A stretch of 64,000 bases of DNA, taken from positions 13,089-77,088 of the forward strand of contig NW_021832011.1 in the NCBI RefSeq assembly GCF_006345805.1, read 5' to 3'. The position numbers and the translations under genes are program-made. Source of the stretch: Octopus sinensis. Its lineage: Eukaryota. Below, piece by piece: positions 740 through 50,052 of the stretch. Under the pieces are notes generated by a model. It worked only from the letters and a program-made list of their open reading frames with translations, ran no database searches and was not told where the DNA came from. Every line of letters begins with the position of its first letter. Position 1 is the stretch's first letter.

Positions 740-1269
740 GTTAAATGCTGGCCCTGTGCTGTCAAAATTGATGGCTAATTGTAGTATTTTATATATAAAT
801 ATGGTTGGTAAATCAAATTAATACAGTTGTCAGTGTTATGTAGTGGTTGTCTTTTGAGATGTGACATCAATTATCGTTTGCTACTAGAAGAATGCTGGTT
901 CACATATACAAACGATCACATACCTCTCTTGTACACACACACACACATATACTCACTCAGAGTTGAAACGCTGTTTGATTTTTCTTTCCAGCGTTGAATG
1001 TTCACCATCCCACTTCCATTGCACAAACACACACAAACATTCACACACCACCCTTATTTTCTTATTTGTATTATATATATATATATATTTTTTCTCTCCT
1101 TGTTTTTTCTGTGTTCCTTTCTGTAGAAGAGCGTAGGCTCGAAACGTAAAAGAAATTTTCTATTCCTGAGCGTTATACTAATACATCTGTTTGTTTTCTA
1201 CACCACCTGTCTTCGTCTTTTGTTTAATTTCGTAAACTCTCCCCATATATATATATATATATATATATA

Positions 1270-1474
1270 TACTCTTTTACTTGTTTCAGTCAATTGACTG
1301 CGGCCATGCTGGAGCACCGCCTTTAATCGAGCAACTCAACCCCGGGACTTATTCTTTTGTAAGCCCAGTACTTATTCTATCGGTCTCTTTTGCCAAACCG
1401 CTAAGTAACAGGGACATAAACACACCAGCATTGGTTGTCAAGCAATGCTAGGGGAACAAACACAGACACACAAA

Positions 1475-1514
<40 letters not shown>

Positions 1515-1676
1515 TACGACAGGCTTCTTTCAGTTTCCGTCTACCAAATCCACTCACAAGGCTTTGGTCGGCCTGAGGGTATAGCAGAAGACACTTGCCC
1601 AAGATGCCACGCAGTGGGACTGAACCCGTAACCATGTGGTTGGTAAACAAGCTACTTACCACACAGCTACTCCTGC

Positions 1677-1679
<3 letters not shown>
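1270..1679 (-). mobile_element. tRNA-derived SINE, dominant family of the window
   Basis: Reverse complement of the copies at 45023, 50137 and 59672: head ggcgcaggagtggctgtgtggtaa...ggttcagtccc, tail gactgaaacaagtaaaagag. Confidence 0.85.
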
Positions 1680-1713
<34 letters not shown>

Positions 1714-1913
1714 TCTTTTACTCTTTACTCTTTTACTTGTTTCAGTCATTGACTGCGGCCATGCTGGAGCACCGCCTTTATATATATCATCATGTTAAAT
1801 GATGATGATGTATATACATATATTAAGTAAAATAGTGAGAAAGATCTATAGACAGAGACATGGTATATATAATGTAGGGGGGTAGGGGTATATTGAAGTG
1901 CTTACCATATGAA

Positions 1914-1954
<41 letters not shown>

Positions 1955-2661
1955 TTTATAGAAGAAAAGAGGCAGATAAAAAGACACAGTTACAAAACGG
2001 TCAAGGAACATTCTTGAGAAAAGTATTAAAAGAAATTTCAAGATAATTATTTTCGTCAAAGGATTATGGGATCACAGGATTACAAAGGATTATAAAAGAT
2101 CAAATGGATTTATAAGTAAAAGAGAGTAAAAGAACACAGGATTATGAAGGATTACAAAGGATTAAAGAAGTGGTTCTCAAACCGTTTTCGCCTATTGACC
2201 CTTGTAGTTCTTATTTTACCTTATTGGGCCCTCGTAGTCATTCACTGTGGCCCCTATTTGTTTCAGTCAGTGGACTGTGGCCATGCTGGGGCAACACCTT
2301 GAGGAATTTTTAATCAAATGATCCCAGTACTTGCTTATTTTTTTTTTAAGCCTGGTATGTATTTTATCCATTGCTTTTGCTGAACTGCTAAGTCATGGGG
2401 ATGTCAACAAACCAACACTGTTTATCAAGCAGGGATAACGGACAACAACACACACGTACACACATACAAATATATAGGTGCAGGCATGGCTGCATGGTAA
2501 GAAGCTTGCCTCCCAGCCACACGGTACCGAGTTCAGTCCCACTGCGTGGCACCTTGGGCCAGTGTTTACTGCTATAGTCTCTCGCTGACCATTTGATATA
2601 GAAATTCTAATTTTCACACCTGTGTTCCGAACTTTTAGCCAGGTAATAATATACTGCAAAG

Positions 2662-3443
2662 TGCCATAGGGTCCCCCAAGAGACATAGGGACTTCCAGGG
2701 GTCATATGGACCTCACAAGAGTTATAGGGACTCCCAAGGGTCATATAAACTCTCAAGGGTCATAGGGACTCCGAAAGGGTCATGGGTACCCCTAAGGGAC
2801 ATAGGCACCCACAAAAGTCATAGAAACTCAAGTGTTATAGGGACCCCCAAGTGTCAAAGACTCAAGTGTCATAATGACTCCCAAAGAGCCCTTATGACTC
2901 TCAAGGATCATAGGGACTCCTAAAGGGTCATGGGTACCCCTAAGGGTCATAGGCACAACCAAAGGTCATAGGAACTCAAGTGTTATAGGGACTCCCAAGA
3001 GTCATAAGGACTCCCAAAGAGTCATAGGGATCCTCCATAGATCATAGGTTCTCCCAGAGTCATAGGGATTTCCAAAGGGGAATAGGGACTTCCAAGTGTC
3101 ATAAGGACTCCCAAAGAGTCATAGGGACCCTCCATAGATCATAGGTTCTCCCAGAGTCATAGGGATTTCCAAAGGGGCATAGGGACTCCCAAGAATCATA
3201 AGGACTCCCAAAGAGTCATAGGGACCCTCCATAGATCATAGGTTCTCCCAGATTCATAGGGATTTCCAAAGGAGCATAGGGACTCCCAAAGAGTCATAGA
3301 GACCTCCAAGATCCATAGGGACTCCCAAAGGAGCATAGCGACTCCCAAACAGGTATAGGGACCCCGCAAAGAATCATAGGAATCCCCAAGGGTCATAAGG
3401 ACTCTCGAGGGTCATAAGGACTTTCAAGCATCATAGGGACCCA
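2662..3443. repeat. Degenerate ~20-bp minisatellite (catagggactcccaaagagt-like)
   Basis: Dozens of catagggac/gtcatag motifs with visible higher-order blocks. Confidence 0.85.
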
Positions 3444-3532
3444 GTTGAGAACCACAAGATTGAAAAACGGTTTTGAAGTAAAAGAAGATGAAAAAAGGAA
3501 TCGAAGAAATAGTGAAAAAATATTTCTTTTAC

Positions 3533-47540: not shown

Positions 47541-47583
47541 TATATATCATACATATATGTATGTATATATGTATATATATATG

Positions 47584-47616
<33 letters not shown>

Positions 47617-47770
47617 GATAGGCTTCTTTCAGTTTTCGTCTACCAAATCCACTCACAAGGCTATGGTCGGCCCGGGACTATAGTAGCAGACACTTGCCCA
47701 TGGTGCCACGCAGTTGGAATGAACCCGGAACGATGAGATTGGGAAACATGCTACTTACCACACAGCCACT
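47345..47770 (-). mobile_element. tRNA-derived SINE, dominant family
   Basis: Reverse-complement homology to 45023-45450. Confidence 0.8.
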
Positions 47771-48347
47771 CATGATATATATATATATCATCATCATCAT
47801 CATCATTATTTAACGTCCGTTTTCCATGCTAGCATGGGTTGGATGTTTCGACTGGGGTCTGGGAAGCCAGAAGGCTGCACCAGGCTCCAGTCTGATCTGG
47901 CAGTGTTTCTACAGCTGGATGCCCTTCCTAACGCCAACCACTCCGATAGTGTAGTGGATGCTTTTTACGTGCCACCGGCACAAGGAGCCACAGCTGACAT
48001 CGACCACAATCGGATGGTGCATTTTACATGCCACTGGCACGGAAGCCAGTCAAAACGACATTGGCATTGGCCATGTTCGGAGGGTGCTTTTTTCATGTTC
48101 TACTGGCATGGGGCTCACAACTACAATTTCCATTTGGTCAAAAGGATGTGTTATAATACTATTCTACATACACACAAACAGCCATACCAACAATCCTCCA
48201 TCATCAGCTGCCCCACACGGATTTCATTATGGTTTTGACACCGGGGCAGGACCATTCAATCTGGTGGTGTGAACAGCACTAAAAGAAGGGTTGTTTGGGA
48301 ACAAACATACCAAACAAAACCACAACTTTCAAACACATTTACTCTAT

Positions 48348-48720
48348 AATGTGGAAGTCCCAGGAAAGGGAAGAATGCTACTGCTGTTTAGCTCCAAGAA
48401 ACACTGTTTCTAGTTGGCTGTTTGACACAAGCAGTCTGTGTCCTTAACTTTTCAAACAGGGGAGATAAACACGTCCACCCAACAAAGCCCGCACCCAGAG
48501 ACTAGTTCCAGGGTAGTTTCAGGCCAAGCTACTCCAGATAATGAAGGGCAACTACCCTGAAACTAGTCTCTGGGTGCAGGCTTTGTTGGGTAGAGGTGTT
48601 TATCTCTCCTGTTTGAAAACTTAAGGACACGGAACGCTTGTGTCACACAGCCAACTAGAAATGGTGTTTCTCGGGGCTAAATAGCAGTAGCAGTCTTCCC
48701 TTTCCTGGGACTTCCACATT
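48348..48720 (+). mobile_element. Fold-back PLE-derived element with ~170-bp inverted arms and a degenerate hammerhead at 48534-48573
   Basis: Arms at 48348-48518 and 48550-48720. Centre reads ccaga-TAATGA-AGGG caacta CCCT-GAAA-CTAG-TC-tctgg. Confidence 0.7.
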
Positions 48721-49087
48721 AAGTTGGCAACGAGCCATTACTTCAACATGCTTCTACTGCATAATTCTCTCTGATATTTACCCTATGGACAACAGGAACT
48801 GCAAATAAATTCAACAAGAAAATCTGTAACCAACTCCTAAATATATATAACTAAACACCGACCAAACCTTTAAGTCATGTATATATATATATATAGGAGT
48901 GGCTGTGTGGTAAGTAGCTTGCTTACCAACCACATAGTTCCGGGTTCAGCCCCACTGCGTAGCACCTTGGACAAGTGTCTTCTACTATAGCCTCAGGCTG
49001 ACCAAAGCCTTGTGAGTGGATTTGGTAGACGGAAGCTGAAAGAAGCCCGTCGTATATATGTTTATATATATATGCATATGTGTGTAT

Positions 49088-49120
<33 letters not shown>

Positions 49121-49475
49121 GCGCCGCCTCAACTGGCTTCTGTGCCGGTGGTACATAAAAAGCACCATCCAAACGTGGCCGATGCCAGCCTCATCTGGCA
49201 CCAGTGCAGGTGGCACGTAAAAAGCACCCACCACACTCGCGGAGTGGTTGGCGTTAGGAAGGGCATCCAGATGTAGAAACACTGCCAGATAAGACTGGGC
49301 CTGGTGCTGCCCTCTGGCTTTCCAGACCCCAGTTGAACCGTGCAACCCATGCTAGCATGGAAAACAGACGTTAAACGATGATGATGATGCATATGTGTGT
49401 GTATATATATATATATATATACATACACACACACTCACACTTAGATATATATATATACTGGAGTAAACACATAAA

Positions 49476-49840
49476 TCTCTCTATATATAAACGGCAGTTT
49501 GTCTGTGTGTGTTCTGTGTGTCTGTCAGGTTGTACCCTCACCCTGACCACGGCTTTCAACCGATTCTGATGAAACTTGACACACACATAGCCCAATGTCA
49601 TAATTCAAAACTAACGCCACGAAAATTTTGAAAAGTTCCCCCAGTTCTGAAAAAAAATCAATAATTCGATATGGGGGTCGAGAATCAGAAACACGAACAC
49701 ACAAACTGTCTAGGGGCGCAACTCCACCTTTTTACCATCATTTTTTTTTTTTTTTTTGTATTATTTTTGGCTTAACTCTCTAAAGATGCTTTATAGTTAT
49801 TTCCCTTACAAACCTGAGCAACGCCGGGCGATACTGCTAG
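49476..49840 (+). mobile_element. Non-autonomous Helitron
   Basis: Starts TC, ends CTAG after a GC-rich subterminal motif. Inserted between A49475 and T49841 with no target-site duplication. Confidence 0.85.
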
Positions 49841-49892
49841 TGTAAAATAAGGTGGAAAAAAGAGTACTCAAATACCAAAGGTAGAGTAATGT

Positions 49893-50052
49893 GCTTTATT
49901 TAAAAGCAGCAGAAATTATACAAAAAGCTGTTAACTCTGGTTTTCACGTTCCAGTTTGTCGGACGAATTTGTTAAAACGGAACTGTACGAAGAACGGGAA
50001 CGTGAAACTCTGAGTAACAGCTTTTGTTAAATTCTGCTGCTTTTAATAAAAC
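49893..50052 (+). mobile_element. Fold-back PLE-derived element with a hammerhead motif at 49983-50020
   Basis: ctgt-ACGAAGA-ACG ggaa CGT-GAAA-CTC t GAG-T-A-acag. Arms tttatttaaaagcagcagaa / ttctgctgcttttaataaa. Confidence 0.65.

What the first reader, a model, noticed from the sequence alone, without database searches (positions are those of the whole stretch)
1117..50052. Family of fold-back mini-elements with hammerhead-ribozyme motifs at the centre
Seen: at least five sequence-unrelated inverted-repeat elements carry a type I hammerhead layout at or next to the hairpin centre (5492-5607, 20492-21747, 24627-24898, 48348-48720, 49893-50052). The layout is stem I, a CUGANGA-like core, stem II, GAAA, a short near-palindromic stem III, NUH, stem I. 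Stand-alone candidates lie at 1117-1152 and 12518-12561. In most cases the left arm is an inverted copy of sequence starting in or just 3' of the ribozyme. Established: Penelope-like elements carry minimal hammerheads in their pLTRs, these can cleave as dimers through a palindromic stem III, and PLEs often have inverted pLTR copies. Inference: these are several families of non-autonomous, ribozyme-bearing PLE derivatives (retrozyme-like), about 7 per 64 kb, usually annotated only as unknown repeats.
Basis: partly seen in the sequence, partly recalled or inferred. Interest (0 to 1): 0.8.

Follow-up and report, generated by a model that had tools for sequence, protein, structure and literature searches.

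The report
Spliced-leader fold-back Penelope insertions
The hairpin-shaped, ribozyme-bearing repeats are real insertions of Penelope-like jumping genes, each with its own fold point; in one family the short copies lack exactly the intron that the long copies keep, which likely explains how these elements hold on to introns while copying through RNA.

Summary
All seven candidates are copies of multi-copy families in G000 that carry a minimal type I hammerhead. The fold-back is not a fixed unit: junctions differ between copies, and one arm carries a 40-80 nt 'tail'. This is the known Penelope-like element (PLE) insertion layout, and the scan noted it before in three other genomes. The families are a mix. 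D (20489-21813) is a truncated autonomous Hydra-clade PLE; B and E are short wrap-around, retrozyme-like units; C, F and G are unresolved. What looks new is family A (24618-24981). Its minis are precisely spliced copies of the leader of an autonomous Hydra PLE, lacking a ~1.3 kb GT-AG intron. Of 47 arms found by an exon-1 probe, all 26 intron-keeping arms run upstream of the putative start site and none of 21 spliced arms does (p = 8e-14). Fold-backs nearly always pair one tailed with one tailless arm (A 45/45 clear cases, D 20/21; B does not obey). Likely mechanism: two cDNAs primed from one sense RNA and joined by microhomology. Cleavage, start site and splicing were not tested at RNA level.

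The parts
1089..1235 (+). Family F solo element; minimal type I hammerhead at 1117-1152 with A6U core
   Evidence: A6U in 30 of 30 copies
5454..5610 (.). Family E fold-back: tailed inverted arm 5454-5539 (-), tailless arm 5540-5610 (+) with hammerhead (A6U core); family unit ~145-150 nt, wraps tail-to-start
12511..12650 (+). Family G: old (~80% identity) element with decayed canonical-core hammerhead at 12518-12561
20489..20873 (-). Family D tailless inverted arm (pLTR with hammerhead, core at 20582)
20874..21440 (+). Family D: 3' end of Hydra-clade PLE ORF (CxCX5C linker, GIY-YIG, CxxC, CxH), interrupted in this copy
21441..21813 (+). Family D pLTR with hammerhead (21651-21716, U4C core) and ~65 nt tail (21748-21813)
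24618..24715 (-). Family A tailless inverted arm
24728..24754 (+). Family A exon 1 (starts at the putative transcription start); splice junction 24754|24755
   Evidence: matches L314:1504-1530; the sequence after it matches L314 from 2845; L314:1531-2844 is a GT-AG intron
24755..24981 (+). Family A exon 2: canonical-core hammerhead (24763-24809), short end ~24900, tail to ~24981
48347..48774 (.). Family B fold-back: inverted arm 48347-48518 (-), sense arm 48521-48774 (+) with decayed hammerhead 48534-48575 and partial tail; family unit ~345-355 nt, wraps
49849..50052 (.). Family C fold-back: tailed inverted arm 49849-49964 (-), tailless arm 49976-50052 (+) with hammerhead 49983-50022 (family core U4C)

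Best explanation
These are truncated insertions of Penelope-like retroelements, each likely folded back as it landed because two cDNAs were primed from one sense RNA; in family A the short copies lack exactly the intron that all longer copies keep, likely because they were primed at the first, spliced repeat of the transcript. Steps: (1, inferred) transcription starts at an initiator in the upstream pLTR and the first intron is spliced. (2, inferred from Frangieh 2024 plus copy ends seen here) the RT-endonuclease cuts both strands of an AT microsatellite and primes one cDNA at the tail end and one at the short end, ~70 nt apart. (3, shown as end products) each cDNA stops at its own point and the two are joined through short overlaps, giving a head-to-head repeat with one tail. 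(4, inferred) priming at the first pLTR gives a spliced, ORF-less ~260 nt dead end; priming at the downstream pLTR, whose intron is not removed, gives long intron-keeping copies that carry the promoter on. B and E are short non-coding units that likely borrow the same machinery. The hammerhead is a passenger in these products: it is copied uncut.
For: Splice dichotomy 26/0 versus 0/21, Fisher p = 8e-14; no spliced arm at 63 further-picked sites (partly overlapping set) starts before reference position 1. Intron has GT and AG ends and is 1249-1314 nt in most copies, 879 in one. L361 holds the whole parent unit with a Hydra-type ORF starting ~65 nt after the tail. The three sequence variants of the minis recur in intron-keeping parents. 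One tail per fold-back: A minis 45 of 45 clear cases among 47, A long copies 10 of 10, D 20 of 21, C 17 of 18 by script (the 18th by eye), E 6 of 6. Either arm may be the longer at the 5' side (tailed arm truncated 12, tailless 10, both complete 25), and two insertions have non-overlapping arms (L226, L253), which self-copying of one cDNA cannot give. Junction overlaps in 37 of 47, 14 of them the same 11 nt near-palindrome. Arms share splice state (26 spliced pairs; 7 of 7 intron pairs) and haplotype (65 of 66; 10 shared private variants in 7 insertions). PAc cuts and extends both strands from two internal start sites, with uncleaved RNA as main substrate (PMC11167929, main text read).
Against: No RNA-level proof of the start site, splicing or cleavage. 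Family B breaks the one-tail rule (2 mixed, 2 tailless pairs, 2 tailed pairs among 6 scored); L210 (D) and two units of the L340 array (A) have two tails. Frangieh 2024 saw no strand difference in start site in vitro. Shared variants could come from later arm-to-arm conversion. The probe spans the splice junction, so its 235 hits are all spliced by design, and the genome-wide spliced:unspliced ratio is unknown. The splice pattern was found in one family of seven. Why the downstream intron escapes splicing is not shown. Within-family covariation is weak.
Confidence: 0.7

Rival explanations
1. The A minis are one self-propagating non-autonomous family founded once by a spliced cDNA or by a DNA deletion, and moved in trans.
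For: 235 exact hits to a junction-spanning probe; fixed 5' end; exon 1 and intron both end in AG, giving 2 nt of overlap.
Against: Three mini haplotypes match three intron-keeping parent haplotypes. Minis end in microsatellite at the tail and lack the downstream RNA that PAc needs (PMC11167929). No wrap or head-to-tail mini was seen at 63 sites; one search gave 0 hits but gapped patterns had no positive control.
Confidence: 0.15
2. Self-priming on an antisense template, or fold-back of the first cDNA, makes the palindrome and keeps the intron (model of Arkhipova 2013).
For: A 5' near-palindrome is the commonest junction (14 of 47); arms share private variants; PMC3846280 passages.
Against: Precisely spliced copies need a sense, spliced template. 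In 12 insertions the tailless arm reaches further 5' than the tailed arm, and 2 have non-overlapping arms.
Confidence: 0.1
3. Long copies come from a ribozyme-cut, unit-length circular RNA that holds only the downstream intron, while minis come from uncut spliced mRNA; the two arms may come from two RNAs of the same locus.
For: Wrapping units in B and E; partial tandems in D; the hammerhead begins ~10 nt after the acceptor, so cutting could block splicing; circle model in PMC4209133.
Against: No junction at the cleavage site in 47 A fold-backs; fixed U4C and A6U cores are expected to slow cleavage (PMC3088659 passages on U4C and on position 6); no direct RNA evidence. It differs from the best explanation only in the template of long copies.
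Confidence: 0.25
4. MITE-like DNA transposons or long-read palindrome artefacts.
For: Hairpin shape; TA-rich flanks; homopolymer indels show a long-read assembly.
Against: Variable junctions, one-sided tails, different flanks on the two sides, solos, and linked RT-GIY-YIG ORFs.
Confidence: 0.02

Closest known systems
Canonical EN+ PLE insertion units (inverted 5'-truncated pLTR plus tail; Arkhipova 2013 PMC3846280; Craig 2021 PMC8557442)
   Same: Head-to-head inverted copy, tail at one end, microsatellite target, partial tandems, hammerhead in the pLTR.
   Different: Tails are 40-80 nt rather than 30-40; the one-tail pattern is near-strict in four families here, where the papers say 'optional' or 'often'; spliced minimal copies were not mentioned in the passages read.
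Hydra clade PLEs (Craig 2021, section 11)
   Same: D and the A parent have the modified linker, DKT, CxxC and CxH motifs, (TA)n targets and a hammerhead.
   Different: The A parent unit is ~6.2 kb with a 1.3 kb pLTR intron and an Asn-rich stretch (Hydra described as generally <3 kb); D has a fixed U4C core. No tree against Hydra references was built.
Drosophila virilis Penelope (Schostak 2008 PMC2377424; Cervera 2014 PMC4209133)
   Same: Initiator, short first exon, intron ending just before the hammerhead; most transcripts spliced, genomic elements intron-keeping.
   Different: Intron 75 nt there, ~1.3 kb here; here spliced genomic copies are abundant and confined to the leader.
Non-LTR retrozymes (Cervera 2020 PMC7229834; bioRxiv 2026.07.22.740005)
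   Same: B and E are short, non-coding, hammerhead-bearing units with more-than-unit head-to-tail copies.
   Different: Minimal rather than canonical ribozymes; mostly 1-2 units; they carry PLE-type tails and inverted arms; E is below the 170-400 nt range; circular RNA untested.
LINE-1 twin priming (recalled, not read)
   Same: Two target ends prime two cDNAs on one RNA, joined by microhomology.
   Different: Here both start sites are fixed and the cDNAs usually overlap, giving an inverted duplication.

Membership tests
EN+ Penelope-like elements | RT followed by C-terminal GIY-YIG in one ORF | tested here: met
   D: 545 aa natural frame in L209, weak Pfam GIY-YIG (E 0.002-0.009, below cut-off), 887 relatives at E<=1e-20, nearly all of the 120 listed unnamed; A parent L361. 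Not met or not found for B, E, F, G; C only through related L123.
EN+ Penelope-like elements | pLTR in partial tandem, inverted truncated copy, tail | tested here: met
EN+ Penelope-like elements | Target-site duplication or microsatellite target | tested here: inconclusive
   (TA)n or (TAA)n flanks hide any duplication
Hydra clade | CxCX5C linker, RWK-type motif, DKT, CxxC and CxH around E and N | tested here: met
   D (DKT read by eye from the DNA); A parent with K for R in RWK; definition
Hydra clade | Unit under 3 kb | tested here: inconclusive
   D 2590 nt met; A parent ~6.2 kb not met; the paper says 'generally'
Hydra clade | Phylogenetic placement with Hydra RTs | not tested
   No reference set held
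Minimal type I hammerhead | Core, stems I-II, short near-palindromic stem III, NUH | tested here: met
   Seven families with different stems and the same layout; cores U4C in C and D, A6U in E and F; stem I and II imperfect in G
Minimal type I hammerhead | Stem covariation among copies | tested here: inconclusive
   A few compensatory variants (F-type stem I and II; B stem II in 3 of 26), but B's commonest stem II has a mismatch (7 of 26)
Minimal type I hammerhead | Self-cleavage as dimer | not testable with these tools
   Needs an assay
Non-LTR retrozyme | Short non-coding unit in head-to-tail copies | tested here: met
   B 18 of 30 and E 22 of 30 loci wrap; not seen for A, C, D
Non-LTR retrozyme | Expressed as circular RNA | not tested
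MITE | Fixed terminal inverted repeats and fixed structure | tested here: not met

The most novel reading that the evidence does not exclude
PLEs do reverse-transcribe spliced sense RNA, and intron retention is positional: the first pLTR intron of the transcript is always removed but can only yield promoter-less, ORF-less fold-back minis, while every productive copy inherits the downstream, never-spliced intron, possibly shielded by the hammerhead placed just behind the acceptor. A PLE dimer uses its two internal start sites one per target strand on a single RNA.
Probability: 0.5. Interest if true: 0.8.

Novelty: new variant of a known kind. Interest (0 to 1): 0.64.

Why it matters
How PLEs keep introns through an RNA step has been open since 2003; Craig 2021 calls its significance unknown, and Arkhipova 2013 proposed an antisense template. 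Family A gives a large intron and two clean product classes that argue for a sense template and make the question testable by RNA sequencing and by re-reading other genomes for spliced solo pLTRs. The one-tail rule links the two in vitro start sites to the two target strands. B and E add insertion-signature evidence that retrozyme-like units are moved by PLE proteins. The fold-backs themselves are ordinary.

Tried and rejected
Rfam e-value scan: swamped by microsatellite hits. Gapped patterns for an A tandem and for a GC-containing continuation after the A tail gave 0 hits, without a positive control; later showed the continuation is AT-rich. My first reading of A as a non-autonomous or circular unit was dropped. 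The loose A 'wrap' probe (4 of 70) is AT-rich noise. No RNA holder listed on record; contigs of four guessed-RNA runs cover D and show the unit-length back-joint that genomic tandems also have, so this says nothing on circles or expression. tblastn found no PLE ORF near the 97 A-mini, 30 B or 30 E loci; hits near F (2 of 30) and G (1 of 20) were not shown to be linked. Lunse 2017 was not held, so U4C and A6U may already be listed there. A genome-wide count of intron-keeping A copies was not obtained. Literature searches for prior reports: searches found none on spliced genomic PLE copies or PLE twin priming in the held library; Arkhipova 2003, Evgen'ev and Arkhipova 2005 and all supplements (Craig S1/S2, Frangieh Fig. 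S2) were not seen and may bear on novelty.
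Full report
Setting. The window is G000:C8482:13089-77088 of a 2.72 Gb, microsatellite-rich genome. I label the candidates A (24627), B (48348), C (49893), D (20492), E (5492), F (1117), G (12518).

Observation. The five inverted repeats are present. A type I hammerhead descriptor gave 5 hits with at most 1 core mismatch against 0 in 12 shuffles; three candidates were missed because the window copies are decayed. 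Searches of G000 found relatives for all seven (each scored only the best 40 candidates, of 215 to 1742). Parsing the copies gave the same layout with different stems in each family. The core is canonical in A (58 of 58 parsed of 63, but selected by the probe), B (perfect in 16 of 26 parsed of 30) and G (12 of 13 parsed of 20). U4C is the norm in C (25 of 29 among the classes printed) and D (30 of 30 near-identical copies); A6U in E and F. Covariation within families is slight, as expected of dead copies.

The fold-back is made per insertion. At 63 distinct A sites picked by an exact probe (70 loci of the first 100 listed of 235 hits, 7 being second arms), 47 are inverted and 16 solo. Junctions vary; 37 of 47 show overlap and 14 share an 11 nt near-palindrome at the 5' end. 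All copies end at one of two points about 70 nt apart. In 45 clear cases one arm is tailed and the other is not; two (L238, L254) are degenerate; none has two tails. The same holds for long A copies (10 of 10), D (20 of 21; one arm is tailed by ascertainment), C (17 of 18 by script, L138 by eye) and E (6 of 6), but not B (2 of 6). Either arm can be the more complete, and two insertions have non-overlapping arms, so both arms were copied from RNA rather than one from the other. Arms match in haplotype in 65 of 66 insertions once single-base indels and single-site differences are set aside (26 of 66 had such differences, mostly homopolymer indels), and share 10 private variants.

What each family is. 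D holds the 3' end of a PLE ORF between its arms. It is young (40 of 40 best hits 99.5-100%), and L209 holds a whole unit with direct pLTRs, period 2590 nt. Its motifs match the Hydra clade. C shares D's core variant; a related copy (L123) has an endonuclease end upstream, but the main C group was not tied to an ORF. B and E wrap from tail to start and have no ORF nearby, so they behave like retrozymes that carry PLE insertion marks. F is a solo element and G an old family.

Family A. A probe to the first 22 nt (48 hits; 43 loci held) revealed long copies in which the first 30 nt are followed by a GT donor, and the rest of the mini follows an AG acceptor about 1.3 kb later. The window copy has the spliced junction at 24754|24755. 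Of 47 arms scored, 26 keep the intron and all continue upstream; 21 are spliced and none does (p = 8e-14; some arms are pairs from one insertion, so independence is imperfect). L361 shows the whole parent: ribozyme, tail, Hydra-type ORF in broken frames, 3' pLTR with intron, period about 6.2 kb. Arms of one insertion share splice state (26 spliced pairs; 7 of 7 intron pairs). The layout parallels D. virilis Penelope, where an intron lies 46 nt behind the start and most transcripts are spliced (PMC2377424). The start site here is inferred from the 5' ends and an initiator-like motif.

Mechanism. The simplest account is twin priming on one sense RNA from two fixed sites, then microhomology joining. 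Priming at the first pLTR gives spliced minis bounded by the RNA 5' end; priming at the downstream pLTR gives intron-keeping copies. The absence of intron-keeping copies that begin at the start site suggests the first intron is always removed on templates and the second never. Why is unknown; cleavage about 50 nt behind the acceptor, or a ribozyme-made circle, are candidates. The ribozyme is uncut in the minis' templates (0 of 47 junctions at the site; L023 in the score-biased set ends there by eye).

Comparison and novelty. Inverted pLTR plus tail, opposite-strand ribozyme pairs and truncated copies are published (PMC3846280, PMC8557442, PMC4209133), and the scan's notes describe such fold-backs in three other genomes. 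I found no report of spliced genomic PLE copies or of strand-paired start sites in the held library, but key papers and supplements were not seen. Papers seen: PMC11167929 parts 1-2 of 4 plus passages; PMC4209133 parts 1-2 of 4; PMC8557442 passages and section 11; bioRxiv 2026.07.22.740005 part 1 of 5 plus passages; PMC3846280, PMC2377424, PMC7229834, PMC6765202, PMC3088659 passages; Lunse 2017 nothing. LINE-1 twin priming is recalled.

Verdict. The spliced-leader class and the one-tail rule make it a new variant of a known kind, interest 0.64.

Noticed in passing
window 539-743, 25102-25310, 23560-23735: Further short inverted-repeat elements with no hit from the hammerhead descriptor; 25102-25310 looks MITE-like with TA flanks.
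   Followed up: no
window 60310-60605 and 60782-60923: Fold-back of a repeat that also occurs as a direct copy nearby.
   Followed up: no
window 55653-59296: Tandem array with a 140 nt period, ~92-94% identity.
   Followed up: no
   Followed up: no
window 15413-15448 (-): Fragment of family E.
   Followed up: no
L340 (G000:C905): Tandem array of family A fold-backs, period 581 nt; two units have tails on both arms.
   Followed up: partly
L060, L080, L063, L071, L082: Family B copies whose shared alternative upstream sequences join the unit right after an AG; possibly another splice-type junction or chimeras.
   Followed up: no
L342, L361: A-parent ORF has an asparagine-rich stretch between RT and endonuclease, as described for rotifer Penelopes in PMC3846280.
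   Followed up: no
L179-L207: Family F 5' ends cluster about 65 nt before the ribozyme, with no inverted arm in 40 listed matches; may be another start-site-limited product.
   Followed up: partly
L039: One A fold-back whose arms differ at two linked variant sites in the distal half; possible two-template or conversion event.
   Followed up: partly
L127, L164, L188, L013: Different hammerhead families often sit side by side in one microsatellite tract.
   Followed up: no
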